NCBI GenBank assembly: GCA_034440475.1
Contig: JAWXCC010000002.1
Location: 16,787 to 80,786, forward strand
Length of the DNA: 64,000 nt
Reading direction: 5' to 3'
Origin: Phycisphaerae bacterium
GTDB taxonomy: Bacteria; Planctomycetota; Phycisphaerae; Phycisphaerales; SM1A02
The number at the start of each line of letters is the position of its first letter. The first letter of the stretch is position 1. Below, one piece after another: positions 6,424 through 30,153 of the stretch. A program made the translations under genes and the position numbers. The notes beneath the pieces were generated by a model. It saw only the letters and a program-made list of their open reading frames with translations. It was not told where the DNA came from and searched no databases.

Positions 6424-6497
6424 CGCACTTGGAGGGACTTGAACCCCCGACCCTCGGTTTCGAAGACCGATGCTCTATCCAACTGAGCTACAAGTGC
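6424..6497 (-). tRNA. tRNA-Arg (anticodon UCG), 74 nt, no encoded CCA
   Basis: Folded by hand on the minus strand. Acceptor stem GCACTTG/CAAGTGC, D arm GCTC/GAGC, anticodon stem TCGGT/ACCGA with loop CTTCGAA, T arm GGGGG/CCCTC with loop TTCAAGT, discriminator G. Confidence 0.9.
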
Positions 6498-6595
6498 TAG
6501 GACCGGAATCATACGGGATGGAACCGCAGAATCGCCGCCGAAATCGACGGGCACGGAACCCGATCCGCGGACAGACTCGGCCGTATCCTGCCGTT

Positions 6596-7414
6596 ATGTC
6601 CGCCACCGCCACGTCGCCGTCACTCGCGCCCGCCACCACGCTTATGGCTGGCAAGCGCGGGCTCATCGTCGGTATCGCCAACGATCATTCGTACGCGTAC
6701 TTCATCGCTGAAAGCCTCCGCAAACACGGGGCTGAGTGCCTCTTCACCCACTTGCCAGGCGAAAAGATGGAGCGCCGCTGTCGCAAGGCAGTCGAGCAAC
6801 TTGGCGTCGCCGATCCGTGGCTCGTGCCGATGGACGCGGGGAGCGACGAAGATCTCGACCGCGTGTTTGACCAAGTGAAGCGCGACTTCGGGACGATCGA
6901 CTTTCTCGTTCACTCAATCGCATTCGCCGACAAGGACTGGCTGCGCGAGGGTGCGTTCACCGCCACGCCGCGGCTGGTGTTCACGCAAGCCATGGACATC
7001 AGTGCGTACACGTATGCCGCAATGGCAAATCGCGCGGCACCACTGATGGCGAACGGCGGTTCGATGTTAGCTCTGTCGTATTACGGCTCGGAGAAAGCCG
7101 TACCGGGCTACAACGTCATGGGCGTCGCGAAGGCGGCGCTCGAAGCGACCATGCGATATCTCGCACTCGAGCTCGGACAGAAAGCGATCCGAGTCAACAC
7201 GATTTCGGGTGGCCCGCTGCGGACCATGAGTGCGCTCGCCGTAGGTGGATTTAGCGACATTCTGGGTTGGGTCGAGAAGAAGGCGCCGCTGAGGCGCAAC
7301 GTCACCGGCGCCGACGTCGGCGATACAGCGCTCTGGCTTCTGAGCGACCTCTCGAAGGGTGTAACGGGCCAGAACATCTACGTCGACGCGGGGTATTCGA
7401 TCGTCGGACTGTGA
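6596..7414 (+). CDS. fabI: Enoyl-[acyl-carrier-protein] reductase (NADH), FabI
   Basis: MAGKRGLIVGIANDHSYAYFIAESL, SIAFAD, and YNVMGVAKAALEATMRYLALELG (Y-x6-K). The track ORF starts at 6470 inside the tRNA, so I use the ATG at 6596. The ATG at 6644 is also possible. Confidence 0.9.
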   Translation: MSATATSPSLAPATTLMAGKRGLIVGIANDHSYAYFIAESLRKHGAECLFTHLPGEKMERRCRKAVEQLGVADPWLVPMDAGSDEDLDRVFDQVKRDFGTIDFLVHSIAFADKDWLREGAFTATPRLVFTQAMDISAYTYAAMANRAAPLMANGGSMLALSYYGSEKAVPGYNVMGVAKAALEATMRYLALELGQKAIRVNTISGGPLRTMSALAVGGFSDILGWVEKKAPLRRNVTGADVGDTALWLLSDLSKGVTGQNIYVDAGYSIVGL

Positions 7415-7452
7415 ACGGAGTCGATGTCCCGCGCCCCGGAACTGGACTTCGC

Positions 7453-7995
7453 ATGCGACGACAGAACAACCGACTTCGGACCGAATCTCGCCGTTTATTC
7501 GTTCCGCCTATCTGTTCACTGCTCGCGCTGACTGTGCTCGCGGGTTGCCGGAGTACAGCGACACAGACGCAGATGCTCGTGCCGGGAACGAACGGTCGCG
7601 CCGACACGATCGTGGCACTCGAGCCAGGCTGGGCGCAGCGCGCGGTGCGAGCGCTGCGTGATTCCCCTGGCTGCCTCGGTGTTGAAGCATCACAGTTGTC
7701 GGGTAACCGCGCCGCGATTTTTGCGATGTTTAGGGACAAGGCCTCGGCTGTGACGTGGTATCGAGGCGAGGTGCATCAATCGCTCGTCGACAAGGTGCGT
7801 TTCTACCGCGATCATGAGCACGGTCCGCTCTCCGGCGTCGCGGACGGCACCGGTCCGATCCTCGCCATCGCGACGCTCTCGCGGCGTGCGGCGGCCGACG
7901 GTGACACGCCGCCGTATGTTCTCCTCAGCGTGGAACTCTTCACGCCGCTGGAAGGTGGCGTGAGCTTTGGTGGCGCGTCGTTCTTGCCAAAATAG
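7453..7995 (+). CDS. Hypothetical lipoprotein
   Basis: The internal ATG at 7453 gives MRRQNNRLRTESRRLFVPPICSLLALTVLAGC, which carries a lipobox (LAGC). The upstream part of track ORF 7267.. overlaps the fabI 3' end and is Arg-rich shadow sequence. Confidence 0.6.
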   Translation: MRRQNNRLRTESRRLFVPPICSLLALTVLAGCRSTATQTQMLVPGTNGRADTIVALEPGWAQRAVRALRDSPGCLGVEASQLSGNRAAIFAMFRDKASAVTWYRGEVHQSLVDKVRFYRDHEHGPLSGVADGTGPILAIATLSRRAAADGDTPPYVLLSVELFTPLEGGVSFGGASFLPK

Positions 7996-8079
7996 GGGAA
8001 GAAACTCGCGCTGGGCCTGACTTCTCGAGGCTGGGTACACGTCGCTCCTCCGGCGAGTCTCAATCGTCATCGCGGCCGG

Positions 8080-8227
8080 ACACGGGACACACGACGAGAG
8101 TGTGCTCGAGCGTGAGCCATCCGACATGTGAAGACTGGGCAAGCCAGTCGCGAAGTGCGAGGAGGCCCCTTGCTCGCAAAGGTTCACTTGTCGGATGTCT
8201 GAGTTCGGCCAACACGGGACACACGAC
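8080..8227. repeat. Structured palindromic element flanked by 16-bp direct repeats
   Basis: Direct repeats ACACGGGACACACGAC at 8080-8095 and 8212-8227. Between them are 15-bp inverted arms, CATCCGACATGTGAA (8118-8132) and TTCACTTGTCGGATG (8183-8197), with one mismatch. The arms enclose two small hairpins: GACTGG-gcaag-CCAGTC and TGCGAG...CTCGCA. Confidence 0.6.
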
Positions 8228-8231
8228 CAGC

Positions 8232-8289
8232 GACTAACGAAGCACGCAGAAGCAAGGATCGATGCCAACTGCGTGTTTTCGAGTTGGGC
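8232..8289 (-). repeat. Candidate short attC-like site (weak)
   Basis: Minus-strand reading: GCCCAAC TCGAAAA CACGCAG ...19 nt... CTGCGTG CTTC GTTAGTC. The RYYYAAC box is perfect, the stem is 7 bp, and R' deviates at one position. No bulged bases. Confidence 0.35.
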
Positions 8290-8326
8290 GGTACGCGGCG
8301 CAAAGCATCGATGAGCGCTGGCGAGA

Positions 8327-8422
8327 AGCTAACACTCGTTGGAAATCGAGACGACTGAGCCCGCCGTCGGCGTGGAGCGGCAGCGTGAGATCATCAACGT
8401 GCGGGCCGTCAGACAGCTAGGT
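8327..8422 (-). repeat. Candidate degenerate attC site
   Basis: Minus-strand reading: ACCTAGC TG TCTGACGGCCCGC ... GCGGGCTCAG ...21 nt... GTTAGCT. CTGA[CG]GCCCGC pairs with GCGGGCTCAG, leaving two bulged bases. The L'-R' spacer is unusually long. Confidence 0.4.
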
Positions 8423-8701
8423 GCTGCTCGCCTCCGCGCCGAGCGGATTCACCAGCGCCCTCGACAGACGATCCTTGAGTGACGTCGTGCTCACACGCGT
8501 CTCCGCTAAAAGACGCATGCACTGCGCGAGCCACACGGACTCGCCCGATGCACCGAGCATGACGATAACCCCGTCGATGCCAACACGGTTCTTCGGCAGC
8601 TCGACGCGAGTGCCAACCCCGGGCACGAGCACGCTCGGTCGCGGATCGACCTCAGGGCGTTTCCGGCCGACGCCTGCGTCGACGCAGGATTCCAGCTGCG
8701 G

Positions 8702-8947
8702 ATGGTGCAGTCCGGCGACGAGCCTCTCGACTGGAAACCCCTTCGGGGAGTCGGGCACGGCGCGATGGAGATACGGGTCCGTCGGGGCGGAGCATTTCGA
8801 GTCGTCTACGTTGCCAAGTTTGCTGACGCGGTATACGTGCTTCACTGCTTCGGAAAGAAGACCGAGAAAACGAGCCGGACCGATATCGACCTAGTGATAC
8901 GCCGATACGGCGAGATGATGGCGCTATGGAAAACCGAGGAATCCTGA
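8702..8947 (+). CDS. higB: HigB-like (Gp49/RelE-ParE superfamily) toxin, N-terminally compromised
   Basis: WKPLRGVGHGAMEIRVRRGGAFRVVYVAKFADAVYVLHCFGKKTEKTSRTDIDL matches the Gp49-type HigB core as I recall it. The same frame upstream (from about 8633) reads ARSRIDLRAFPADACVDAGFQL, also family-like. No ATG/GTG/TTG lies between the upstream stop (8507-8509) and the ATG at 8702. Confidence 0.7.
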   Translation: MVQSGDEPLDWKPLRGVGHGAMEIRVRRGGAFRVVYVAKFADAVYVLHCFGKKTEKTSRTDIDLVIRRYGEMMALWKTEES

Positions 8948-9248
8948 CAATGAGTGCGCGACGCAAGCAGACAGACCACAACGTGTTTCTCGACCTTGGC
9001 CGCACGCCGCACGAGGCAGAGAACCTTCGCGCACGCGCCGACCTCATGATCGAGCTGATTCAAATCATCCGCGGCCGGAAGCTGACTCAGGCGGCGGCGG
9101 CAAAGCTCGTCGGCGTGAGCCAGCCCGCATGAGCGACCTGATGACGGGAAAGATAGGCCGATTCAGCATCGACGCGCTTGTCGAGATGCTGACTCGCGCC
9201 GGTCGTCGGGTTGAGTTCGCGACGAAGGCTGCCCGGCGGGTCGCCTAA
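8926..9248 (+). pseudogene. higA: HigA-like XRE-family HTH antitoxin, frameshifted
   Basis: Frame 1 reads ...NVFLDLGRTPHEAENLRARADLMIELIQIIRGRKLTQAAAAKLVGVSQPA and then stops. The next frame, from 9129, reads MSDLMTGKIGRFSIDALVEMLTRAGRRVEFATKAARRVA and stops. Adding one C to the CCC run at 9124-9126 restores the expected ...GVSQPRMSDLMTGKI... The real start is probably the ATG at 8950. Confidence 0.75.
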
Positions 9249-9354
9249 CGACCATTGAGCTGTGCTGCACGCGACGTGCGTGCAGCCGAGGCGTAGGTCT
9301 CGCGACAATCATAACGCACGCACGCCGCAAATCAGCACACGCGAGTTGCTAGGT
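9243..9354 (-). repeat. attC site (R'' variant ACCTAGC)
   Basis: Minus-strand reading: ACCTAGC AACTC GCGTGTGCTG ... CAGCACAGC TCAATGGTC GTTAGGC. The L stem pairs with one bulged G. Confidence 0.7.
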
Positions 9355-9559
9355 TGCCGCCCTTGTACGCGCAGGCCGCGCCCCGACCACCGCGAGATAC
9401 GGACCCGCGCCGAGGAACTGCGAGCCCTCCGGCGAGCGCGGCGTGCCCGCGTTGCCGCCCGACCCCGACGATCGCACGAAAGTTCCCGAGATCTGACCGC
9501 CTCGCGTTGGCGTCTGGCCATGCCGAGCCGATAGACTCGACGCGACAAGAGACTACCCC

Positions 9560-9766
9560 ATGGAATTCACGATCGAAACAGAATCGGAAGACGACGGGCG
9601 CTGGATCGCCGAGGTGCCGACGCTCTCCGGAGTGATGGCAGACGGCGCGACCCGCGACGAGGCTCGCTTTCGCGTACACGCGCTGGCGCTGCGCGTGGTC
9701 GCCGAGCGACTCGAGCACGGCGAAGGCGGATCCGAGTTTCTCACAATCGTGTTCCGTGCCGCATGA
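9560..9766 (+). CDS. hicB: HicB-family antitoxin
   Basis: MEFTIETESEDDGRWIAEVPTLSGVMADGATRDEARFRVHALALRVVAERLE, a UPF0150/HicB-like fold signature. It shares an ATGA overlap with the next ORF. Confidence 0.8.
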   Translation: MEFTIETESEDDGRWIAEVPTLSGVMADGATRDEARFRVHALALRVVAERLEHGEGGSEFLTIVFRAA

Positions 9767-9974
9767 GCGACTGGCGAAGCTCACGGGCGCGACGGATCTT
9801 GGCGGCGCTGCTACGCATCGGCTGGCGCGAGAAGCGATCGTCGGGATCCCCCGGACTCTGGCTCGCGATGGCTGGCCGGACTACGTGTTCGCGTTCCATG
9901 ACAGCGAAGAGATCGGCCCGAAGATGCTCGCGAGAATCAGCAAGCGCACCGGGCTGACGCCGGAAGAACTCTGA
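9763..9974 (+). pseudogene. hicA: HicA-family mRNA interferase toxin, frameshifted
   Basis: The N-terminal part (frame of 9763) reads MSDWRSSRARRILAALLRIGWREKRSSGS. The C-terminal part (frame of 9756) reads RTLARDGWPDYVFAFHDSEEIGPKMLARISKRTGLTPEEL. One extra C in the C5 run at 9848-9852 joins them into a canonical HicA. Confidence 0.75.
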
Positions 9975-9987
9975 CTCGGATCGGGCA

Positions 9988-10092
9988 ACCTAACGACCAT
10001 TGAGCTATGCCGCACGCACGTGCGGCCGAGGCTGAAGGCCTCGCGACAATAGTAACCCGCACGTGCGTGTCGGCTTGAGCGAATTGTTAGAC
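9988..10092 (-). repeat. attC site
   Basis: Minus-strand reading: GTCTAAC AATTC GCTCAAGCCGACACGCACGTGCGG ... CCGCACGTGCGTGCGGCATAGC TCAATGGTC GTTAGGT. The stem is long and bulged. The brnA stop TAA lies inside GTCTAAC. Confidence 0.85.
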
Positions 10093-10317
10093 AGTGCCTT
10101 TCCGGAGCGGTTGCCACTTCATCGCGAGCTGCCGGCCACTGCTCGCGCAATCGCGGAGATAGAGGTTGATTAGGCTCTGGTACGGCAGCGCGGTCTTCTC
10201 CGCGAGGCGCTTGAAGTACTCGATCGTGCCATGGTCCAAGCGGATCGTGATGGATCGCTTGAGTCGCTTGGCGTAGGGATTCCGCTTTGCCCGGGAGAAG
10301 TCGTAGTCGCTCTTCAT
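10087..10317 (-). CDS. brnA: BrnA antitoxin (ribbon-helix-helix)
   Basis: DFSRAKRNPYAKRLKRSITIRLDHGTIEYFKRLAEKTALPYQSLINLYLRDCA. ATGA overlap with brnT. Confidence 0.85.
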   Translation of the reverse strand: MKSDYDFSRAKRNPYAKRLKRSITIRLDHGTIEYFKRLAEKTALPYQSLINLYLRDCASSGRQLAMKWQPLRKGTV

Positions 10318-10640
10318 GGCGCGTTCCTTTCGGTGTACTGGCGGCGCTCGTGCCGATTCGCGCGGCGAGCCGAGATGATTCGGACGACATCGTCGTACTC
10401 CCGATGAGTGTGGACGACGACCAGGAGACGGACCGAAGGACCCAGCCCGAGGAGGACGAACCGGTCCTCGTCCCCGGACTGCTCAGAGTCGGCCATGAAC
10501 AGCGCGAATTCGTCGGCGAACACCATGCTCGCCTCGTCGAAGGTCACGCCATGCTTGCCCTTGTTCGCCGCGGCTTTGCGCGGATCCCATTCGAAGCGGA
10601 GTTCGGCCACGGCGTTAGTGTACCTACGACGTAGTGACAC
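10314..10640 (-). CDS. brnT: BrnT toxin (DUF497)
   Basis: FEWDPRKAAANKGKHGVTFDEASMVFAD...RFVLLGLGPSVRLLVVVHTHREYDDVVRIISARRANRHERRQY. The track start at 10640 is GTG; an alternative GTG lies at 10610. Confidence 0.85.
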   Translation of the reverse strand: MSLRRRYTNAVAELRFEWDPRKAAANKGKHGVTFDEASMVFADEFALFMADSEQSGDEDRFVLLGLGPSVRLLVVVHTHREYDDVVRIISARRANRHERRQYTERNAP

Positions 10641-10677
10641 TGCAACGCCACAGTTTTGGCCGCCGACGCCTTGGGCC

Positions 10678-10791
10678 GCCTAACGATTTGCGAGCTGTGC
10701 TGAGGCCACGACGGCGGCCGCAGGAAGCGAAGCCTCCGGAGGTCGCCTGACGGCCGCCGCCGCGGCCGTCAGAACTAGCGAACTGTTAGGA
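10678..10791 (-). repeat. attC site
   Basis: Minus-strand reading: TCCTAAC AGTTC GCTAGTTCTGACGGCC ... GGCCTCAGCACAGC TCGCAAATC GTTAGGC. The stop TAA of the upstream cassette ORF lies inside TCCTAAC. Confidence 0.8.
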
Positions 10792-11869
10792 AGTTTCGGG
10801 GCTGGCTCGCGCAATTGGAATGACACTCTCGATTTCTCCAACGCCAGGAGACTTTGGCGGACCAAGCTTAGGAACAATTGATTCCAGCCAAACAAGGATC
10901 GCCGAAACGTTGACCAAGAGCTGCAGTAGGCGATCGAACGTGAGCGGGCCGGTTTTGGCTACGAGCTTGCCCTCATGAACGAATATGTTGCGATACTCGT
11001 ACGGTTCGGAGAACGCTTGCACAACTTGGGGTCTGACTTAAGCCCTTTCCCCGCAAGAATCGCGAGAAGCGAGTCGAGGTACTCGCGCAGCGATGGTTCC
11101 CGCCTGTAGTCCCCACCGCGATCTTGAATCCAAGGCCATAGATCAGGCGGTTGCATTCGCTCGGCAGCGATCGCGGAAACGACGGCGTGAACCGCCGTCT
11201 CGATGGCGCTAGCTGCCAACACAACCGCTGGCCCTAGGTGTGAGTTGAGCGACTGGGCATCGAGAAACAGCGTTCGCCAAGGGGCTGACTGGAAGTTGGG
11301 ACCCAGTTCTTGGCAACGAACCAACAGTTGGGGCCGAACCGACCAGAGCGCGATATTGCAGCCGGCCCCGCCAGCTCCTCGGATGAGTGCCGGATCCATG
11401 ACGAGCTCGCTTCCATCATCAGCTCGGTACTCAAGAGTCCAGAACTCCACGCTTCCCAACGGACGAACCTGCGGAAGATTGGTCAAGGCGCCATTCGTTC
11501 GATCCAAGTGTTCAGTGCAATTAGTGCGGCTGATTGAGGAGGATCGTTTGATTGTCGTGATTCAATGATGGACTTCTGCCGGTCGAAGGCCCGTCGCCGA
11601 AAGTGCACCTCAATCGCATTGGCATGGACTGCTGGCACGCCGTCAATTCGAAAAGATGGATCCGCGCTCGGGTCCGACACTAGCGCCATTGCGGCTGCGG
11701 CGCGCTCCAAGATGGGCATGCTCGGATCTCCTGCTCGTGTGCCCGCGACGACGCACGGTGAGTGGATTGTCACCTCGCAGTCGTTCCAAGACTGGGTTAG
11801 CAAGGGCATTTCCGCCTTGTGAGGCACCGGGATCGTGAACGGAAGCAGGAGTCGGAATTTCGCGATCAT
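10786..11869 (-). pseudogene. Cassette gene with a C-terminal HEPN-like (RNxxxH) domain, split by at least one frameshift
   Basis: Three consecutive overlapping ORFs lie on one strand, in frames 1, 2 and 0: 11483-11869, 10959-11507 and 10786-11022. One extra base in the GGGG run at 11028-11031 joins ...LAILAGKGLKSDP to QVVQAFSEPYEYRNIFVHEGKLV. The surrounding sequence looks like a four-helix pattern. The ATG at 11869 is 11 nt from the attC boundary. Confidence 0.55.
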
Positions 11870-11879
11870 TCGAGAAGCT

Positions 11880-11980
11880 GCCTAACGATCCTGAGCTTTG
11901 CCGCACGCACGTGCGGCCGAGGCGTAAGCGTCGCGCAGAATGTACATCACGCGCGTGTCGGCATGAGCGATGGGTTAGGC
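11880..11980 (-). repeat. attC site
   Basis: Minus-strand reading: GCCTAAC CCATC GCTCATGCCGACACGCGCGTG ... CCGCACGTGCGTGCGGCAAAGC TCAGGATC GTTAGGC. The stop TAA of the 11975.. ORF lies inside GCCTAAC. Confidence 0.85.
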
Positions 11981-12688
11981 CTTGCTGGACAGCTGTCCGC
12001 ATTCCGGGCATGTGGAGTGCCTTGCAAGGACGTACCCGCAGTTGGGACACAGGCCAGCACGTCCACGAAGCATGCGACGGAGGCGGAGCGGTGCGAAGAC
12101 CAGCAACCACCTGACGGACGCCCATACGAGCACGTCTGCCAGAAATCCCGGCCAAACGGGACGGATCGGAAGCATGAGTCGGAGGAACCCCTTCCATTGT
12201 GGGGCGGGATGAGCGCTGATCTGCCATCCGCCTTCGACAGTGCGTTTGACGACTCGCTCGACTCGAATCACATAGCCGAGAGCTGCAGACGGCCATCCAG
12301 CTCGCGATTCGACGGTGAACAGCAGCTGGTCGGACTTTGGAGGGTTGGCAATGTGCGACCACGGAGCGATGTCCGAGGGATTTGCTTGCCCTCGCGATGC
12401 AACGAACGCACGGTCAGCGACGGAATCGCCGGTCGCGAAAAGGCTGCCTTGGGGCGGAGGCACGACCATGGATTCGCGGAACACTGCCGCCGCGAAGACC
12501 GTCTCGCGCCCAAGCGACTGCTAGCGAGAAATGGCCCACATCGGCGCGTTGTGCCCAGTGTTGGCGTGTAGCACAGACGAACGAGTTGGACCCGCGAGCG
12601 AGGTGAAGGCCCAAGCGAGCGCCACGGTGACGGCCACGCCATTGACGTCGCAGATGAGAAGCGCTTTGAAGGTTTTTCGCGGCTGCAC
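11975..12688 (-). pseudogene. Membrane protein with C-terminal zinc ribbon (CxxCGY...CPECG), interrupted by an in-frame TAG
   Basis: Track ORFs 12521..12886 and 11975..12484 are in the same frame, separated only by the TAG at 12521-12523. From the GTG at 12688 the frame reads VQPRKTFKALLICDVNGVAVTVALAWAFTSLAG (TM-like), then ...AISR, the stop, then QSLGRETVFAAAVFRESM..., and ends RRMLRGRAGLCPNCGYVLARHSTCPECGQLSSKA. Confidence 0.6.
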
Positions 12689-13466
12689 CGGGTGTGTCCA
12701 GTATGAGGCACCATGCCGTAGGCATCGCAAGCAGTATAACCCGCACGGGCATATCGGCATGAGCGAAGTGTTCGGCGAGCGCGGATCGACTTCTGCCGCA
12801 TTCCGGGCAGGTCTGAGATCCGCCCAACAGATGTCCACAAGCGACGCATTGGTCACGCCGCTGGCGAATTCCCCGCCGCGCGACAAGGGGCAACTGTATT
12901 AACAGGAGCAGCGGGACCGCGATGGATGCGGAGCTGATGGCAAGTGAGATCCAGATCGGAAGAATTGGCAATGCGGCTCTATCGTCAAGCTTGAATAACC
13001 AGCCGGACGGTACCGGAACCTCCAAGCAACCTCGAGTTTGACTCGCCTCGTTCCGAGGGTCTGGTCCGTCGGCGACCACTTCGTACATGGAGAGCACCGC
13101 GATTGGCCATCCGAAAATCTCCTCACGGATGTAGATGTTGTGTGGGTAGCTCGAGAAGGGGTCGTTGTTGGCGTAGAAGTCGGGGTTGTCGGTGAGACCG
13201 AGGTACTTCTCGCAAGCGCCCCAGCAGTGCGCCTGACCCGCATCCGAAACCTGGAGTTGATCGCGGGCGGCATTTGGGATCGCCATCGCAGCGGTCGTCG
13301 ACTCGACGGCGATAGTGCGCAGTCGAATTCGATCTCGCATGCTGAGGGTGCGGCGACTGCTCAAGTAGAGGTCTCCCAGTCCGTTCCGCGTTTGGGAGAG
13401 TACGGCGGCCGCGACCGCAGTCATCAGCGATGCAAAGAAGCCAAGTCCAAGGCAGACAAGCAGCAC
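12414..13466 (-). CDS. Membrane protein with zinc ribbon; the ORF is extended by a stop-loss inside a decayed attC
   Basis: N-terminal TM segment LLVCLGLGFFASLMTAVAAAVL, a second TM segment, then RRGIRQRRDQCVACGHLLGGSQTCPECGRSRSALA. The next codon, GAA (12771-12773), occupies the position of the TAA in the R'' box (GCCGAAC versus GCCTAAC). The ORF then runs on for about 119 Arg-rich codons through the attC remnant and across the start of the next cassette. Confidence 0.6.
   Translation of the reverse strand: MLLVCLGLGFFASLMTAVAAAVLSQTRNGLGDLYLSSRRTLSMRDRIRLRTIAVESTTAAMAIPNAARDQLQVSDAGQAHCWGACEKYLGLTDNPDFYANNDPFSSYPHNIYIREEIFGWPIAVLSMYEVVADGPDPRNEASQTRGCLEVPVPSGWLFKLDDRAALPILPIWISLAISSASIAVPLLLLIQLPLVARRGIRQRRDQCVACGHLLGGSQTCPECGRSRSALAEHFAHADMPVRVILLAMPTAWCLILDTPGAAAKNLQSASHLRRQWRGRHRGARLGLHLARGSNSFVCATRQHWAQRADVGHFSLAVAWARDGLRGGSVPRIHGRASAPRQPFRDRRFRR
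12693..12776 (-). repeat. Decayed attC site (both R boxes mutated, internal deletion)
   Basis: Minus-strand reading: GCCGAAC ACTTC GCTCATGCCGATATGCCCGTGCGGGTTATACTGCTTGCGA TGCC TACGGCATGGTGCC TCATACTGGAC ACACCC. It aligns to the 9988-10092 copy but lacks about 20 nt, and ACACCC sits where GTTAGG should be. Confidence 0.6.
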
Positions 13467-13953
13467 AACAGGCCACGACGCCGATCTGTGTTTTCCCTAG
13501 GCACTGGGTCGCTCCGCCCAACTCTCAACTATTCCGTCCGGAGTTTCTGGAAAGTGCGGTCGGCAGAAATCGGCACTATGAGTGACGCGAGAACCGTAAG
13601 TCGCGAAGGTATCACGGAATCCAGATGGGGGAAGAGGCTGTGTCCGATTTATGCGGCGGGCGATGCGCCAAAATCGCGGCATAGCTCGGTCGCCCGCTTT
13701 CTACTGGGACTAGCCCTTGCCAGCTTGTTGACTCGTCTGCCTCGACCTCAGTCCGGATTCCGGCACCTCGGGCGCCGTCGGGTGCCGCCAGCGCAGCGCC
13801 TAGCAGTCCGCAGATCGCACTTTCACCGCGATATGTCACGACCCGCCGCGTCGGTTGCTCCGCTCGTCGGGGTTGGCGCCTCGTCCAAGCGGGGATCTCA
13901 CATCTGTCACATCGTCGATTCGTTTATCGCGAGCGCCGGACTCCTTCGAAATC

Positions 13954-14730
13954 TTACGCGGACAGCCGGTCGAGCGGGCTGACTACTCCATGCCCACCGC
14001 GGTTCAGGACATGTGTATAGATCGAGGTGGTCGAGGCATCATTGTGGCCTAACAGCTCCTGCACGGTCCGAACGTCATATCCCGCCTCAAAGAGGTGCGT
14101 CGCGAATGAGTGGCGCAACGTATGCGGTGTCGCGGGTTTCGCAATGCGTGTGCGGCGCACCGCGTCTCTCATTGCTCGCTGAATCAAGCTTGCATCGAGC
14201 ATGGTCACGCGATCCTTCGCGCCTTTTCCATCGCGGATACGGATCTCAGCATGATCGATGTCGATGTCCTTGACGCGCAACGTCAAGGCCTCGAAGAGGT
14301 GCATTCCAGTGCCATAGAGAAGTTCACACACCAACTGCGGAACGTCGTCCATAGCGCTGAGCAACTCTTGGACCTCACGGACAGTCAAGACGATCGGCAG
14401 CCGCTTGGGTCGCCTCGCGCGCACGATCTCTTTGATCTGGAGGAGCGGCTTCTTCAGCACGTCGCGATAGAGGAAGAGCACCGCGCACAGCGCCTGATGC
14501 TGAGTCGAACTGGCGACATCATGCTCCGTCGCGAGGCGTGACAGGAATTGCTGCACCTCGTGCTCTGCGAGTGTCACCGGATGTCGTCGGTCGTGGAACA
14601 CGAGGTATCGCCTGATCCATCCCAGATACGCCGACCTCGTGTTCGGACTCAGATGTCGCGCCGCCATGAGCTCGACGATCGCTGAATAGAGCGTCGGCGT
14701 GTCCGTACCCGGTACCAGCGGAAGAGGCAT
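13954..14730 (-). CDS. intI: Integron integrase homolog (IntI), internally deleted and probably inactive
   Basis: From the ATG at 14730: MPLPLVPGTDTPTLYSAIVELMAARHLSPNTRSAYLGWIRRYLVFH...LLYGTGMHLFEALTLRVKDIDIDHAEIRIRDGKGAKDRVTMLDASLIQRAMRDAVRRTRIAKPATPHTLRHSFATHLFEAGYDVRTVQELLGHNDASTTSIYTHVLNRGGHGVVSPLD. That is 258 aa, against roughly 320-340 aa for typical IntI. The track ORF start at 15069 adds an implausible 113-aa leader. Confidence 0.85.
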   Translation of the reverse strand: MPLPLVPGTDTPTLYSAIVELMAARHLSPNTRSAYLGWIRRYLVFHDRRHPVTLAEHEVQQFLSRLATEHDVASSTQHQALCAVLFLYRDVLKKPLLQIKEIVRARRPKRLPIVLTVREVQELLSAMDDVPQLVCELLYGTGMHLFEALTLRVKDIDIDHAEIRIRDGKGAKDRVTMLDASLIQRAMRDAVRRTRIAKPATPHTLRHSFATHLFEAGYDVRTVQELLGHNDASTTSIYTHVLNRGGHGVVSPLDRLSA

Positions 14731-14969
14731 CGGCCCGCTCCGCCCACTTCCGTCGTGGAAATTCTGTTGCGACTTATAGCTCCCACCTCCGACGCGAGAG
14801 CCTATAGCCATGAAGACTCCGCACCGAAAATCGCGGCCGAAGTCTGCCCCGTGGAAATTCCCCCGCGCCGCGAAATTCGCTGTGGAGCAGCCGACACCCA
14901 ATTCGCAAGCGAACGGGTGATGCCACTGTGCTTCTCGGCGTTCGTCGCCAGCGCCGCGCGACGATGAAA

Positions 14970-15005
14970 CCAAATCCATCGCCAAATCCATTGCCAAATC
15001 CATTG
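14970..15005. repeat. 12-bp tandem repeat x3 upstream of intI
   Basis: CCAAATCCATCG CCAAATCCATTG CCAAATCCATTG. It lies between the GTPase gene stop (15036) and the intI start (14730). Confidence 0.8.
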
Positions 15006-15035
15006 AATGCAAAACGCATCGACCCGCGTCTCTCG

Positions 15036-16061
15036 TTATGCACTCAGCAGGCGCTCGTCGAAAATCCACGGCCGCGGACTTTCGATGTCAGCCTGCGGCA
15101 CAAGGCGTTCGCGCATCAGCGCCGCGAGTTCGACGAGACCCTCGCCAGTTGTCGCGCATACCTCGATATCAGCGGCAGGTGACGGAAGCGTGCGCCCGGC
15201 CTTCAAGTCTCGTTTTGTTAGGACGCGCAGATCGGGCGCGCGTCCGAGATCGGGCCACGAGGCAGCCTTGCCACTCGAAGGATCGGCGGGCTCCGCGACG
15301 GCGATGACAAGATCAGCGCCCGCGATGACGCTGCGTGCAAGTTCAATCGCTGCTCGCTCGATTGGGTCGCTTGTCTCGCGTATGCCTGGCGTGTCGAACC
15401 AGTCGACCACGAGACCGGCGACATCGATTCGCGCCGCGACGTAATCGCGCGTCGTGCCCGCTTCGGGACTCGTGATCGCGATGGTGCTTCCGACGAGTGC
15501 ATTACTCAGCGTGCTCTTGCCCGCATTCGGAAGACCGACAACCGCAACGCGCGGCGGCACGAGCAATCGGCGCAGGCGCAGTGAGCGCGGCCGATCTTCA
15601 TCGTTTGGCGGATTTATCTGCCACACGGTGGATTGCTGGAGCAAGAGTGACACGGCGAGCGGGCTTGCCGCTCGTGTGAGCGCAGCGAGCGCGTGTGCTT
15701 CGATCCGATCAGCGGCTTCTGGGAACACCTCAAGCGGGTCGATGTTTGACGCATCTTCAAGCCAGCCAATCGCATGGGCCGCGAGCCAATCGCGCAGCCG
15801 CGCGAGGACACGCTCGCCGCCGTGCGGGCAGAGTTGCGCGCGATCTTCTGAGAGCAGCGCCACGATCCCGTCGTCGAAGTCGCCGAACCGCCGATGGGAA
15901 ACGCTCGCAATGGCGGGCGACGAGCGCGGATAGAGCCGACTCAATCCAGCGCGCACGTCGCCTATGAGGTCGACAACGGCTATAGCCCCCGGGCCGCGCG
16001 GCGTCGAGAGAACCGCAAAGCAGTCGGGGTCTGCAACAAGATGCTCGGTTGAATCGGTCAT
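15036..16061 (-). CDS. MnmE/TrmE-like GTPase (short form)
   Basis: N-terminal LSTPRGPGAIAVVDLIG, G1 GLPNAGKST, TTRD, G3 DTPG, G4 TKRD. I see no C-terminal CxGK motif, and at 341 aa it is shorter than classical MnmE. Confidence 0.65.
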   Translation of the reverse strand: MTDSTEHLVADPDCFAVLSTPRGPGAIAVVDLIGDVRAGLSRLYPRSSPAIASVSHRRFGDFDDGIVALLSEDRAQLCPHGGERVLARLRDWLAAHAIGWLEDASNIDPLEVFPEAADRIEAHALAALTRAASPLAVSLLLQQSTVWQINPPNDEDRPRSLRLRRLLVPPRVAVVGLPNAGKSTLSNALVGSTIAITSPEAGTTRDYVAARIDVAGLVVDWFDTPGIRETSDPIERAAIELARSVIAGADLVIAVAEPADPSSGKAASWPDLGRAPDLRVLTKRDLKAGRTLPSPAADIEVCATTGEGLVELAALMRERLVPQADIESPRPWIFDERLLSA

Positions 16062-16903
16062 TCGTCGTCGCGCGGAGAGGCGTCGTCTTCGCTGTCACTC
16101 GCACTGCCGCTCGCGGGGCCTCGCTCAAGCGAGCCATCAGTCAGTGCGTAGCGCACTGCGACAGCCATCCCTTGCAGTGTGAGGTCGGGCACGATGCGAT
16201 CGACGAGTTCGTCGTTCGCGAAGAGCACTTCGGCGTCGCCACCAGTAGCAATGACCGGAGGAAATGCGCCGTAGCTCTCGGCGTAGCGTTCGACGAGTCG
16301 CCAGACCAGTCCGCGCACGCCCTCAAAGACTCCGCGCAACATCGCCTCACTCGTGTTGCGGCCGAAAGCGTCGGCGGTGGGGCGGCGGAACTCGATGAGC
16401 GGAAGCGCGTCGGTGTGCTCGTGCAGCGCCGTCAACTGGAGACGGACGCCAGGTGCGATCGCGCCGCCTTGAAACGTGCCAGCTCCGTCGATGAAGTCGA
16501 CCGTGACGGCGGTCCCGGCGTCGACGATCACGCACGCCTGCTTCATGCGGTCCCACGCCGCCGCGGCATTGAGCAAGCGGTCCGCGCCGACGATCGTCTC
16601 GGGATCGAGGGCCTCGCCGATCGGCACTGGAATGTCATCCCCGATGCGATAGACGTCGACACCGAGCTGATCTTCGAGCATCGAGACCAGTGAGGACGAA
16701 ACCTTCTCATTCACGCTGGCCAGTGCGATCGCTGCGTTTCCGTCAGCACGGAGGTCGTTCCACATGCGCGTGACGTCACTCAGAATTGCCGCGAGATCGG
16801 TGGTGGAGAACCGGTGGCTTTCCTCGAGTTTGTCGTCGACGAAACGACCGAGCTGAACGCGAGTGTTACCTACTTGAAGTGCGAGGAGTGATGGAGCATT
16901 CAT
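16058..16903 (-). CDS. coaX: Type III pantothenate kinase
   Basis: LALQVGNTRVQLG, VIVDAGTAVTVDFI, GGAIAPG, IATGGDA. It has an acidic C-terminal tail and a 4-nt overlap with both neighbours. Confidence 0.85.
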   Translation of the reverse strand: MNAPSLLALQVGNTRVQLGRFVDDKLEESHRFSTTDLAAILSDVTRMWNDLRADGNAAIALASVNEKVSSSLVSMLEDQLGVDVYRIGDDIPVPIGEALDPETIVGADRLLNAAAAWDRMKQACVIVDAGTAVTVDFIDGAGTFQGGAIAPGVRLQLTALHEHTDALPLIEFRRPTADAFGRNTSEAMLRGVFEGVRGLVWRLVERYAESYGAFPPVIATGGDAEVLFANDELVDRIVPDLTLQGMAVAVRYALTDGSLERGPASGSASDSEDDASPRDDE

Positions 16904-27843: not shown

Positions 27844-30153
27844 ATGTCCCAGCGTCAGCGTGGCTTCGTCGGTGTCGTCCTTGTGATGTTCCTAGCGCTT
27901 CTGGTGGCTCACGCTGCGACGCGCGCCGATCAGGCCGAACTCGGGTTCGAGAGCGACCCGCTCGTTGCCAACGGCTGGGTCGTCCCAACGCCGGGCTGGA
28001 CGGCAGAACTCACCGACGAGCAACCGAGCGCTGGCACGCACTGCGCCAAGCTCGGGAAGAAGCCTGAGTCTGCGTCGACGTTCGGCAATCTGATGCGAAC
28101 GATCGACGCCGCGCCGTATCGCGGTAAGCGTGTCGCGCTCTCATCGAAGATTCGTGTCGTTGGCGATGGCCGCAGCCAGATGTGGATTCGCATCGATCGC
28201 GCGAACGACGTCATGGGTGGATTCGACAACATGTCCAACCGCCCCGTGTTCGGGAACGGTGAATGGACGACCGCGATGTCCGAGGTCGATGTCGCGGCCG
28301 ACGCGCTCGCCGTCAATGTGGGCTTCATGGTCTTCGGTGCCGCGACGGCGTTCGTCGACGAGGTTGCGCTTGAAGTCAAGGGCGACGCGGCGCCCGTGCA
28401 AGCGGCTTCGCCGCTGCGAGCGCTCACGGCGCGCGGGCTTGAGAATGTTCGTGCGGCTGTACAGCTTTTGAACTACGTCCGTTTCTTTCATCCGAGCGAT
28501 CAAGCAGTTGGGGTCGCGAGCTGGGGGCATGTTGCGATCGACGTCATCGAACAAGCCGAGCCTGCCGTTGACGCTGCCGACCTCGCACGACGACTGTCGA
28601 CAGCATTTGCTCCGCTCGCGCCGACACTCGAAATGTGGGCGGGTGACTCGGCGGCGGCCCCCGCGCTACCTAACGCGCTATCGAGTGCGACGAACGTGCG
28701 GTCGTGGCGCCACGTTGGGGCAGGAACGATCGCCGCTCCAAGCCGAGGCAACGCGTACTCAAGCGCGGTCACCGAGCGCACCCTCAGCGCTGCCGTCACG
28801 CCGACGGACTGGGCAGCGTCGTTCTTGGTGAAGCGGCTTGACGGCGGCGTCTCGTTTCGCCTTCCTATTCAGGTCTACGGCGACGAAAAGGGAACGATCC
28901 CGCACGGCTCGACGCCACCGGCGCTCATGAAGGACGCAGCGCGGCCAGTTCTCGAGTCGAGTAACCGCTCGACGCGCCTCGCCGCGATCGCCATGGCGTG
29001 GGGCGTGTTCCAGCATTTCTACCCGTACTTTGAGCCCGATGGCGATCTCACTCCCGCTGACTGGGACAGCGCGTTGACGGCAGCGCTTGAAACGGCCGCG
29101 ACCGACGCTGACGCTACAGCCATGCTTGCGACGCTTCAGACACTTGTCGCAACGCTCCACGATGGACACGGCAATGTGTCTGGCGGAGCCGCACCGCGAA
29201 AGGCGATGTTGCCCGTCTTGCTCGAGTGGGCAGGCGACGAACTCGTGGTGGTGGGCGTGCACGCTTCCGCGGACAAGAGTGCGAACGTCGGCGACGTTGT
29301 CCTCGCGATTGATGGTCGCACAACGGCCGAGTGTTTTCGCGATGCAGCGACGCGGATCTCAGGCGCGACCGACGGCTGGATTCGTTCGCGTTCCACGATG
29401 GAGATAGCGACTGGTGCAGCGGACAACGATCCCGCGGTCCTATCGCTGCGTGGTCAAGACGGTGTGGAACGAAATGCGACGCTGCGACGGATTCCGCTGC
29501 AGCAGATCGCGGGCGGAAGCGCGCGGCGACCCGAGACCGGAAGCGAACTTGCGCCCGGCATCGTGTACTTCGATCTCAACGCCGCAGAGCTTCCGGCGCT
29601 GACCGCGGTGATGCCGAGGCTCGAGACCGCGAAAGGCATCGTCTTCGACATGCGCGGATATCCCGGAGGCGCGGCCTATTCGCTGATTCAGCACTTGATC
29701 GACGCACCAGCGACGAGCGCACGCTGGAGGAAGCCGGTCGTCACGATGCCGGATCGAGAAGGTTGGACGTGGGACGAGAGCGGCCGCTGGAGTATGCCGC
29801 CACTCGCGCCGCGGCTGCGGGCACCGATCGTCTTCGTCACTGACGGGCGTGCGATTTCTTACGCTGAATCCATCATGGGCATCATCGAGCACTACAAACT
29901 GGGAACGATCGTCGGCGCGACGACCGCCGGCACCAACGGGAACGTCAACCCGTTCGAGGTGCCCGGCGGGTTTTCGGTCTCATGGACGGGCATGCGCGTG
30001 CTCAAGCACACCGGTAGCCGCCATCATGGCGTGGGTATCGCGCCCCACCGTCCGATCAAGCCGACCGCAAAAGGCATCGCCGAAGGACACGACGAGGTGT
30101 TAGAGAAAGCAGTCGAAGTGCTGCGAACGAAAATCGAGACTCAGGACGGGTGA
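27844..30153 (+). CDS. Secreted S41-family (tail-specific-like) peptidase
   Basis: Signal peptide, then FDMRGYPGGAAYS and FVTDGRAISYAESIMG, followed by GATTAGTNG. Confidence 0.75.
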   Translation: MSQRQRGFVGVVLVMFLALLVAHAATRADQAELGFESDPLVANGWVVPTPGWTAELTDEQPSAGTHCAKLGKKPESASTFGNLMRTIDAAPYRGKRVALSSKIRVVGDGRSQMWIRIDRANDVMGGFDNMSNRPVFGNGEWTTAMSEVDVAADALAVNVGFMVFGAATAFVDEVALEVKGDAAPVQAASPLRALTARGLENVRAAVQLLNYVRFFHPSDQAVGVASWGHVAIDVIEQAEPAVDAADLARRLSTAFAPLAPTLEMWAGDSAAAPALPNALSSATNVRSWRHVGAGTIAAPSRGNAYSSAVTERTLSAAVTPTDWAASFLVKRLDGGVSFRLPIQVYGDEKGTIPHGSTPPALMKDAARPVLESSNRSTRLAAIAMAWGVFQHFYPYFEPDGDLTPADWDSALTAALETAATDADATAMLATLQTLVATLHDGHGNVSGGAAPRKAMLPVLLEWAGDELVVVGVHASADKSANVGDVVLAIDGRTTAECFRDAATRISGATDGWIRSRSTMEIATGAADNDPAVLSLRGQDGVERNATLRRIPLQQIAGGSARRPETGSELAPGIVYFDLNAAELPALTAVMPRLETAKGIVFDMRGYPGGAAYSLIQHLIDAPATSARWRKPVVTMPDREGWTWDESGRWSMPPLAPRLRAPIVFVTDGRAISYAESIMGIIEHYKLGTIVGATTAGTNGNVNPFEVPGGFSVSWTGMRVLKHTGSRHHGVGIAPHRPIKPTAKGIAEGHDEVLEKAVEVLRTKIETQDG

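What the first reader, a model, noticed from the sequence alone, without database searches (positions are those of the whole stretch)
8232..14730. Sedentary chromosomal integron whose integrase is transcribed toward its own cassette array
Seen in the sequence: a minus-strand ORF at 13954-14730 carries IntI/tyrosine-recombinase blocks. These include RSAYLGWIRRYLVFH, LLYGTGMHLFEALTLRVKDIDIDH, GKGAKDR, KPATPHTLRHSFAT, RTVQELLGHNDASTTSIYTHV and VVSPLD. On its 3' side, at gene-sized intervals, lie 84-114 bp imperfect palindromes bounded by YCTAAC...GTTAGRY. They are at 9243-9354, 9988-10092, 10678-10791 and 11880-11980. A decayed copy lies at 12693-12776, and weaker candidates at 8327-8422 and 8232-8289. 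Read on the minus strand they begin GTCTAAC AATTC GCTCAAGCCGAC or GCCTAAC CCATC GCTCATGCCGAC, and end AGC TCAATGGTC GTTAGGT. This is the R''-spacer-L''...L'-spacer-R' asymmetry, with bulged bases, that I recall for aadA-type attC sites. Inference: the top strand of the array is the minus strand, and the cassettes run from about 13.5 kb down to about 8.2 kb. intI is therefore co-oriented with the array and points into it. This differs from the divergent intI/attI layout of class 1-3 and Vibrio integrons. An inverted-integrase layout has been described for Treponema denticola and a few other lineages. Core genes bracket the element (tRNA-Arg/fabI on one side, GTPase-coaX on the other), so it looks chromosomal rather than plasmid- or transposon-borne.
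Basis: partly seen in the sequence, partly recalled or inferred. Interest (0 to 1): 0.75.

Follow-up and report, generated by a model that had tools for sequence, protein, structure and literature searches.

The report
Decaying inverted-type chromosomal integron
This is a real gene-capture element (an integron) in the chromosome of a Phycisphaerae bacterium, laid out in the already-known "inverted" way, but its recombinase has lost an essential domain and a catalytic residue, so it is most likely a frozen relic rather than a working system.

Summary
The ORF at 13954-14730(-) is an integron-integrase homologue. The two "weaker candidates" at 8232-8422 are not supported.

The orientation call also holds. 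The attC top strand is the minus strand, so intI and the cassettes point the same way and the array lies 3' of intI. This was calibrated against attC_aadA1 of plasmid R100 and against classical integrons from other genomes.

This layout is already known as the "inverted integrase group" (Treponema, Planctomycetes and others). The closest relative, a Phycisphaerales MAG, has the same layout with an intact intI and at least 14 attC sites.

It carries an in-frame 216-nt deletion that removes the IntI-specific domain (VchIntIA residues 174-241), and catalytic Arg-I is replaced by His. Two of the three toxin-antitoxin cassettes are also pseudogenes.

Two relatives have an empty site where this 7.6-kb block sits.

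Verdict: a new, degenerate member of a known kind. Interest is low to moderate.

The parts
13954..14730 (-). intI remnant (258 aa). Gene callers extend it to 14991 (345 aa, P0001).
   Evidence: TIGR02249 scores 321 bits, above the cutoff of 265, but in two stretches. VchIntIA (2a3v) residues 174-241 have no counterpart. There is a 72-aa gap against 9 full-length homologues.
14198..14199 (-). Junction of the in-frame 216-nt deletion that removed the IntI-specific domain
   Evidence: Nucleotide alignment with the intI of L001. In this interval 24 of 27 IntI-like genes hold 71-75 aa (two 72-aa rows were read in the wrong frame), Xer-like outgroups hold 30-37 aa, and the window holds 0.
14299..14301 (-). 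Codon CAC (His) at the position of catalytic Arg-I (R135 of VchIntIA)
   Evidence: All 9 aligned homologues have Arg here. L001 has CGG.
13514..13540 (-). Candidate attI crossover region (CGGACGG-AATA-GTTGAGA-GTTGGGC). Low confidence.
   Evidence: This is the first GTTRRRY upstream of the cassette-1 ORF. L001 has CGGACGG-CGTGG-GTTGGGA at the equivalent place. The global alignment of the two spacers is uninformative.
12774..13466 (-). Cassette 1 ORF: a 231-aa membrane protein with a C-terminal zinc ribbon. In this window it reads through to 12414 because its stop codon is lost.
   Evidence: It has no Pfam or NCBIfam family. It is a paralogue of the cassette-2 ORF.
12696..12776 (-). attC remnant E. 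The R''-L'' arm is conserved and the R' arm is lost. A SNP at 12773 destroys CCTAAC and the TAA stop in this window only.
   Evidence: R2 gives 20.3 bits, E 0.005. R1 alignment. SNP against L002-L004.
11975..12484 (-). Cassette 2 ORF: 169 aa with a zinc-ribbon C-terminus. Its stop is the TAA inside the R'' box of attC D.
11880..11980 (-). attC D
   Evidence: R2 78 bits, E 1e-17. R1 91 bits on the minus strand against 11.7 bits on the plus strand.
10959..11869 (-). Cassette 3: two overlapping ORFs (128 aa at 11483-11869; 182 aa at 10959-11507). No known family.
10678..10791 (-). attC C
   Evidence: R2 39.6 bits, E 6e-8. R1 75 bits on the minus strand against 12 bits on the plus strand.
10087..10640 (-). 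Cassette 4: intact brnT (10314-10640) and brnA (10087-10317) toxin-antitoxin pair
   Evidence: PF04365 90 bits; PF14384 33 bits.
9988..10092 (-). attC B. Its 5' arm matches 23 of 24 bases of attC_aadA1.
   Evidence: R2 94.7 bits, E 6e-22. DNA fold z-score -6 to -7. Comparison with the R100 attC.
9560..9974 (+). Cassette 5, reverse-oriented: hicB-like gene (9560-9766) plus frameshifted hicA (9763-9974)
   Evidence: UPF0150 hit. HicA_toxin matches the full profile only after the frameshift is repaired.
9243..9354 (-). attC A (R'' degenerate: ACCTAGC)
   Evidence: R2 70 bits, E 9e-16.
8540..9248 (+). Trailing cassette remnant, reverse-oriented: higB (Gp49) without a usable start codon, and higA split by a -1 frameshift. 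No recognisable attC follows it.
   Evidence: No covariance-model hit at 8232-8422.
7415..15035 (.). The whole 7.6-kb block that is absent from two relatives (GTPase and fabI are adjacent there). It also holds a 180-aa lipoprotein-like ORF at 7453-7995(+).
   Evidence: Synteny with L086 and L088.
6424..7414 (.). Core flank: tRNA-Arg(TCG) at 6424-6497(-) and a fabI-like gene at 6593-7414(+)
15036..16903 (-). Core flank: GTPase (15036-16061) and type III pantothenate kinase coaX (16058-16903)
   Evidence: CoaX is 100% identical to a protein of an NCBI Phycisphaerae MAG.

Best explanation
This is a chromosomal integron of the inverted-integrase type, caught in decay, in a Phycisphaerae (Planctomycetota) genome.

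How an intact element of this type is thought to work (inferred from established integron biology). IntI binds the folded bottom strand of attC, here the plus strand. It recognises the two extrahelical bases and recombines attC with an attI site just downstream of intI. Cassettes are therefore inserted pointing the same way as intI. They can be transcribed by read-through from intI or from a promoter at its 3' end.

What this copy looks like (shown). The recombinase has lost 72 codons in frame, and its catalytic Arg-I is now His.

What follows (inferred). The lost segment is the IntI-specific segment that reads the extrahelical bases. The protein should therefore neither recognise nor cleave attC, and the array is frozen. 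It holds six cassette units, four intact attC sites and one half-site.

The rest of the element is eroding too (shown). Two of the three toxin-antitoxin cassettes are pseudogenes, the terminal attC sites are unrecognisable, and one population SNP has just destroyed an R'' box and its stop codon.

The cassettes could now move only if another IntI acted in trans. None is present in this 64-kb window.
For: IntI identity:
- TIGR02249 scores above its cutoff.
- The protein falls in the IntI clade against Xer-like outgroups with 100% bootstrap.

Inactivation:
- VchIntIA residues 174-241 have no counterpart.
- There is a 72-aa gap and an Arg-to-His change against 9 homologues.
- The deletion is exactly 216 nt.
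- Even Xer proteins keep 30-37 residues in this interval.

attC sites:
- The independent model R2 finds all four sites and the remnant on the minus strand.
- In 17 sites, 92% of pair cells are paired, 11 pairs show compensatory changes, and 0 of 500 shuffles do as well.
- The fold shows a 7-bp R box and a central spacer of 5 nt against 7-9 nt. It also shows two single-base bulges (C and A on the top strand, so G and T on the bottom strand) separated by 6 bp.

Orientation:
- R1 scores attC_aadA1 of R100 at 44 bits on the aadA1 coding strand against 13 bits on the other strand.
- In six classical integrons the hits lie upstream of intI on the opposite strand.
- In L001, L006, L021 and L030 the hits lie downstream of intI on the same strand as intI, as in the window.

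Decay of cargo.

Literature:
- The co-oriented layout is described for Treponema, whose intI genes cluster with those of the planctomycetes Kuenenia and Blastopirellula (PMC3607928).
- An 'inverted integrase group' is recognised (PMC3575428).
- About one third of chromosomal intI genes are pseudogenes (PMC2426708).
Against: - The intI remnant is still an uninterrupted ORF, 76% identical to its intact relative over the retained parts. Loss of activity is inferred from sequence and has not been measured.
- attI is only a candidate.
- No sigma-70-like promoter was found. That scan does not cover planctomycete promoters.
- Only 64 kb of the genome is visible, so an intact second intI elsewhere cannot be excluded.
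Confidence: 0.85

Rival explanations
1. It is a working sedentary chromosomal integron: the co-oriented integrase is active and still shuffles cassettes.
For: The ORF is open. The K, H-x-x-R, H and Y catalytic motifs are retained. Four well-formed attC sites are present.
Against: A 72-aa deletion covers the IntI-specific domain and core strands. Catalytic Arg-I is His. The array is identical, apart from 1-4 SNPs, in three other assemblies. The toxin-antitoxin cassettes are pseudogenised.
Confidence: 0.06
2. The deleted IntI has been kept for a non-catalytic role, for example as an attI/attC-binding repressor or as a protein that stabilises the array.
For: The deletion is in frame and no stop codon or frameshift has accumulated in 777 nt, whereas neighbouring toxin-antitoxin genes carry frameshifts. 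The N-terminal DNA-binding domain (PF13495) is intact.
Against: An in-frame deletion happens by chance one time in three. The density of lesions (2 in 0.8 kb) is similar to that of the neighbouring pseudogenes. No relative closer than 72% identity is available to test for selection.
Confidence: 0.05
3. The attC top strand is the plus strand, so the array points toward intI. The layout would then be convergent, for instance an array separated from its true intI/attI by rearrangement.
For: attC sites are near-palindromes. Two toxin-antitoxin cassettes (hicBA, higBA) are coded on the plus strand.
Against: Scores are 75-103 bits on the minus strand against 12 bits or less on the plus strand. The model's polarity was verified on attC_aadA1 of R100 and on six classical integrons. 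All non-toxin-antitoxin cassette ORFs are on the minus strand. The relative L001 has the same polarity.
Confidence: 0.02
4. The palindromes are not attC sites but REP-like elements or terminators, and the recombinase is a Xer or phage integrase.
For: Rfam has no match to these palindromes; its only hit in the window is the tRNA.
Against: The model built from these repeats recognises the experimentally defined attC_aadA1 and the arrays next to intI in 10 other genomes. The repeats occur only next to intI within the 64 kb. Xer models score far below their cutoffs.
Confidence: 0.01

Closest known systems
Inverted-integrase-group chromosomal integrons. Treponema denticola is the described type; its intI clusters with those of Kuenenia stuttgartiensis, Blastopirellula marina, Synechococcus and Chlorobium (PMC3607928, PMC3575428).
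   Same: [quoted passage not shown] The element is chromosomal. The host phylum (Planctomycetota) is already represented in the group.
   Different: The integrase here is a deletion remnant and the array is small and decaying. Membership of the same IntI clade could not be resolved with the sequences available.
Intact integron of Phycisphaerales MAG GCA_046350495.1 (locus L001; IntI is P0002)
   Same: It has the closest IntI (72% identity by BLASTP; sister with 100% bootstrap). The attC family and the co-oriented layout are the same. A homologous higBA pair is present.
   Different: L001 has a full-length 370-aa IntI with Arg-I and the IntI domain. It has at least 14 attC sites within 10 kb. 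It sits at a different chromosomal locus (next to uppS/purA). The site equivalent to the window's locus is empty in that genome.
CALIN elements with a neighbouring intI pseudogene (IntegronFinder classes; Cury et al. 2016, PMC4889954)
   Same: [quoted passage not shown]
   Different: Here the remnant is still an open ORF that passes TIGR02249. Whether IntegronFinder would call it complete or CALIN was not run.
Class 1 integron In2 of plasmid R100 (intI1-attI1-aadA1-attC)
   Same: The attC architecture is the same: R'' GTCTAAC, a 5-nt spacer, an L'' box with a bulged base, and 'CGAC' with a bulged A. The 5' arm of site B matches 23 of 24 bases.
   Different: In In2, intI1 is divergent from the cassettes and the element is plasmid- and transposon-borne. 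Its attC is 60 bp long, against 101-114 bp here.
VchIntIA / Vibrio cholerae superintegron (PDB 2a3v)
   Same: It is the best solved-structure match (E 4e-64). The N-terminal and C-terminal catalytic segments align.
   Different: Residues 174-241 of VchIntIA are missing, and R135 is replaced by His.

Membership tests
Integron (functional platform) | A tyrosine recombinase of the IntI family | tested here: met
   TIGR02249 scores 321 bits, above the cutoff of 265. The protein groups with IntI against Xer-like outgroups at 100% bootstrap.
Integron (functional platform) | The IntI-specific additional domain (between patches II and III), which contacts the extrahelical bases of attC | tested here: not met
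   A 72-aa gap against 9 homologues and no counterpart for VchIntIA residues 174-241.
Integron (functional platform) | A complete R-K-H-R-H/W-Y catalytic set | tested here: not met
   Arg-I is His (GTGM-H-LFE) at 14299-14301. K, HxxR, H and Y are present.
Integron (functional platform) | attC sites: R''/R' boxes RYYYAAC...GTTRRRY, an L box, an unpaired central spacer, extrahelical bases, and a spacing of one cassette | tested here: met
   Four sites plus one remnant. The model also recognises attC_aadA1.
Integron (functional platform) | An attI site adjacent to intI | tested here: inconclusive
   There is only a candidate GTTGAGA/GTTGGGC at 13514-13540, with a loosely similar motif in L001.
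Integron (functional platform) | A cassette promoter Pc | tested here: inconclusive
   No sigma-70-type match in 13300-15200. Planctomycete promoters are not covered by the scan.
Inverted-integrase-group integron | The array lies 3' of intI, with the attC top strand on the intI coding strand | tested here: met
.
Inverted-integrase-group integron | IntI falls in the clade of inverted integrases (T. denticola, B. marina, K. stuttgartiensis and others) | tested here: inconclusive
   The sister L001 is inverted (100% bootstrap), but deeper nodes have under 30% support. Inverted and classical loci interleave in the NJ trees. The reference members could not be fetched.
Sedentary chromosomal integron (as defined in Cury et al. 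2016) | Chromosomal, and either more than 19 attC sites or present in all genomes of the species | tested here: not met
   The element is chromosomal but has only 4 intact attC sites plus 1 remnant. The array is identical in 3 other assemblies of the same population, yet the site is empty in two related genomes. The pan-genome criterion cannot be tested here.
CALIN + pseudo-intI (IntegronFinder) | At least 2 attC sites and no protein matching both PF00589 and intI_Cterm | not testable with these tools
   PF00589 and PF13495 are present. The intI_Cterm profile is not available here, although the region it models (PMC4889954) is the one deleted.
XerC/XerD or phage integrase | A score above the family cutoff, and no IntI-type N- and C-terminal signature | tested here: not met
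   XerC, XerD and XerA score 146-154 bits against cutoffs of 220-335.

The most novel reading that the evidence does not exclude
The whole platform (intI, attI and array, 7.6 kb) entered a 4-nt gap between two convergent housekeeping genes as one block, with no transposase, IS or tRNA-integration signature. If so, inverted-type chromosomal integrons in Phycisphaerae relocate as units by an unrecognised route. Alternatively, the in-frame-deleted IntI may be kept for a non-catalytic DNA-binding role.
Probability: 0.2. Interest if true: 0.45.

Novelty: new member of a known kind. Interest (0 to 1): 0.25.

Why it matters
The finding adds a clear, well-anchored example of an inverted-layout integron in Phycisphaerae, and it shows one in the act of dying. 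The integrase has lost exactly the segment that distinguishes IntI from Xer, while the attC sites still fold correctly. This pairing illustrates how clusters of attC sites without an integrase (CALINs) may arise.

The window can be compared with an intact relative and with an empty site. That gives a natural before-and-after set for studying the gain and decay of integron platforms.

It does not change what is known about how integrons work.

Tried and rejected
- Candidates at 8327-8422 and 8232-8289. Neither R1 nor R2 supports them.
- R1 hit at 48911-49012 (20.8 bits). It has no CTAAC/GTTAG boxes and lies inside a 489-aa ORF, so it is a chance hairpin.
- Hairpin at 28668-28720 from the crude RYYYAAC...GTTRRRY scan. 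It is not attC-like and has no covariance-model hit.
- Rfam. It gave no match to the palindromes; the only hit in the window is the tRNA.
- attI by alignment of the intI-to-cassette-1 spacers of the window and L001. The alignment is uninformative (66% identity, at noise level for this GC content).
- Sigma-70 promoter scan. No hit.
- NJ phylogenies to test for a monophyletic inverted clade. They are unresolved beyond the window+L001 pair. The first ORF-picking attempt chose wrong frames in GC-rich loci, and one script timed out.
- GC content. The cassettes are not compositionally distinct from the flanks.
- Terminal inverted repeats or target-site duplications at the ends of the 7.6-kb insert. 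The end sequences were printed and inspected by eye only, with no dedicated repeat search, and nothing obvious was seen.

Full report
**Observation**

It scores 321 bits on NCBIfam TIGR02249 'integron integrase' (cutoff 265). The XerC, XerD and XerA models stay far below their cutoffs.

The four palindromes at 9243-9354, 9988-10092, 10678-10791 and 11880-11980 align with each other. Each folds as single-stranded DNA into a long imperfect hairpin. A crude scan of the whole 64 kb for YYYAAC...GTTRRR plus a stable fold recovers the three sites with strict ends as the top three hits.

To avoid circularity I built a covariance model (R2) only from 13 attC sites of a different genome (L001). I then searched the whole window with the filters off. 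It finds the 'decayed copy' at 12701-12776 with 20.3 bits, E 0.005.

The two 'weaker candidates' at 8232-8289 and 8327-8422 get no hit from R2. From R1 there is only a marginal 10-bit match at 8218-8299, which uses different boundaries. I treat these two as unsupported.

**Structure of the sites**

The consensus fold of the sites has these features:
- a 7-bp R box (RYCTAAC / GTTAGGY);
- an unpaired central spacer of 5 nt on the 5' arm against 7-9 nt on the 3' arm;
- a 3-bp stem, a single bulged C, a 6-bp stem, a single bulged A, and then a variable terminal stem.

Over 17 sites (4 in the window, 13 in L001), 92% of pair cells are standard pairs. Eleven pairs show compensatory changes, and no shuffle out of 500 reaches the observed covariation. 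Every slid register collapses to 21-44% paired.

This matches the canonical attC anatomy of R and L boxes, unpaired central spacer, extrahelical bases and variable terminal structure, as summarised in PMC12614218.

**Orientation**

The two bulged bases lie on the 5' arm of the minus strand. On the plus strand they are therefore G and T on the 3' arm. That is where the bottom strand of attC_aadA carries its extrahelical bases.

I checked my recollection of attC_aadA1. The 60-mer occurs at 99% identity or better in 1962 plasmid records (five listed hits are 100% identical). In R100 it lies immediately 3' of aadA1 on the aadA1 coding strand, with intI1 divergent. Its first 24 bases, GTCTAACAATTCGTTCAAGCCGAC, differ at one position from the minus strand of site B.

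Model R1 was built with the window's minus strand as 'top'. It scores attC_aadA1 at 44 bits on the aadA1 strand and 13 bits on the other strand.

I then ran R1 on 80 intI-like loci from GTDB species representatives, each oriented with intI on the plus strand. R1 hit 11 of them, and 10 fall into two configurations.
- In six loci all hits lie upstream of intI on the opposite strand, which is the classical divergent layout. These are L042 Aquabacterium, L063 Chloroflexia, L010, L031, L009 and L082.
- In L006 (Acidobacteriota), L030 (Thermoanaerobaculia) and L021 (Planctomycetia) all hits lie downstream of intI on the same strand. L001 shows the same pattern.
- One weak hit (27.8 bits) in L083 lies downstream of intI on the opposite strand and fits neither pattern.

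The window belongs to the second class. All the cassette ORFs that are not toxin-antitoxin genes are also on the minus strand.

- Against the solved VchIntIA structure (2a3v) the protein aligns in two blocks. Residues 174-241 of VchIntIA have no counterpart.
- Against nine full-length homologues there is one clean 72-residue gap.
- At the DNA level the gap is exactly 216 nt, with the junction at 14198/14199.
- In the same interval 24 of 27 IntI-like genes in the wider sample have 71-75 residues; the other three rows were wrong-frame reads, as were two of the 72-residue rows. Xer-like recombinases have 30-37 residues and the window has none. So the deletion removes the IntI-specific insertion and also core strands of the catalytic domain.
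[quoted passage not shown] As I recall from MacDonald et al. 2006, it holds the residues that cradle the extrahelical bases.
- The residue aligned with catalytic R135 of VchIntIA is His (codon CAC at 14299-14301; L001 has CGG). It is Arg in all nine homologues.
- Three other metagenome assemblies of the same population (L002-L004) differ from the window by only 1-4 SNPs. None of these SNPs touches either lesion.

I infer that the protein can neither recognise nor cleave attC. This is an inference from sequence, not a measurement.

**The rest of the element is also eroding**

Cassettes, in order from intI:
1. A 231-aa zinc-ribbon membrane protein.
2. A 169-aa paralogue of it.
3. Two ORFs of unknown family.
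4. An intact brnT/brnA pair.
5. A reverse-oriented hicB plus hicA. The hicA gene matches the HicA_toxin profile only after a frameshift in a C-run is repaired.
6. A reverse-oriented higB/higA pair. Here higA is split by a -1 frameshift, and the Gp49 domain of higB starts upstream of the first available start codon.

Site E keeps a near-perfect R''-L'' arm but has lost its R' arm. In this window alone a SNP at 12773 turns its CCTAAC into CCGAAC. That removes the TAA stop of cassette 1, so the ORF runs on to 350 aa. No recognisable attC closes the last cassette.

**Context**

The flanks are housekeeping genes:
- tRNA-Arg(TCG) and a FabI-like gene on one side;
- an MnmE-like GTPase and type III pantothenate kinase on the other.

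CoaX is 100% identical to a protein of an NCBI 'Phycisphaerae bacterium' MAG.

The nearest IntI (P0002, 72% identity, annotated 'integron integrase', Phycisphaerales MAG GCA_046350495.1) is full length. At least 14 attC sites of the same family follow it on its own strand within 10 kb. The inverted layout is therefore ancestral to this pair, not a local rearrangement.

In that same MAG the coaX-GTPase operon is followed after 4 nt by the convergent fabI (L086). A second relative (L088) also has nothing integron-like between the two genes. Window 7415-15035 is therefore a 7.6-kb block that these relatives lack, and their own integron sits elsewhere. No transposase is present in the block, and no terminal repeats were obvious by eye (no dedicated repeat search was run).

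'Chromosomal' is supported. 'Sedentary' in the strict sense (more than 19 attC sites, or universal in the species) is either not met or not testable.

**Comparison with what is known**

[quoted passage not shown] They recur across Treponema, whose IntI proteins cluster with those of the planctomycetes Kuenenia and Blastopirellula, and with Synechococcus and Chlorobium (PMC3607928).
- Reviews list an 'inverted integrase group' as one of three broad IntI groups (PMC3575428).
- Integrons in Planctomycetes were reported by several surveys (PMC2426708, PMC4889954).
- About a third of chromosomal intI genes are pseudogenes (PMC2426708).
- attC clusters next to intI pseudogenes are a recognised, if minor, origin of CALINs (PMC4889954).

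My NJ trees place the window protein firmly inside IntI, sister to L001 (100% bootstrap for both). Deeper nodes are unresolved, and inverted and classical loci interleave. Membership of a single inverted clade therefore remains open.

**Verdict**

However, the layout is a known class, and the element is a degenerate, probably inactive, member of it. The modest points of interest are the clean in-frame loss of exactly the IntI-defining segment and the comparison between the empty site and the occupied site.

Noticed in passing
window 7415-15035; L086 11829-11834; L088 7398-8330: Two related Phycisphaerales genomes have GTPase and fabI adjacent (4 nt apart in L086). The window has a 7.6-kb block there that carries the integron remnant. 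The L086 genome keeps its intact integron at another locus (L001).
   Followed up: partly
window 12773: A population SNP: C in the window, A in three other assemblies. It converts the R'' box CCTAAC of attC remnant E to CCGAAC and removes the TAA stop, which extends the cassette-1 ORF from 231 to 350 aa.
   Followed up: yes
window 14970-15005: A 12-bp tandem repeat in three copies (CCAAATCCATTG) between the GTPase stop and the conserved start of intI. It lies inside the N-terminal extension that gene callers add to intI (encoding MDLAMDLAMDL).
   Followed up: no
window 8648-9126 (+) vs L001 11466-11947 (+): The decayed higBA pair at the far end of the window's array is reverse-oriented relative to intI. 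It is homologous (59% and 47% amino-acid identity) to the first gene pair after intI in L001, where the pair is co-oriented with intI.
   Followed up: no
window 11975-12484 and 12774-13466 (-): Cassettes 1 and 2 encode paralogous membrane proteins that end in a CxxCG...CPECG zinc ribbon (40% identity over 63 aa). Neither has a Pfam or NCBIfam family. The N-terminus of the second appears to lie in another frame (12521-12886), which suggests a frameshift.
   Followed up: partly
window 7453-7995 (+): A 180-aa ORF with a lipoprotein-type signal (LAGC) and no known family. It lies inside the inserted block but beyond the last recognisable attC. It may be an old reverse-oriented cassette.
   Followed up: no
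L006 14497-15098 and 20159-20759: In an Acidobacteriota inverted-layout integron, pairs of attC hits with identical scores recur 5.66 kb apart. This suggests a duplicated block of cassettes.
   Followed up: no
L006, L030, L021 vs L042, L063, L010, L031, L009, L082: Inverted-layout integrons occur in Acidobacteriota, Thermoanaerobaculia and Planctomycetia. In a poorly resolved IntI tree they do not separate from classical-layout ones, so the layout may have arisen more than once.
   Followed up: partly
L083 7166-7258 (-): One weak attC-like hit (27.8 bits) lies downstream of an Opitutus intI on the opposite strand. It fits neither layout.
   Followed up: no
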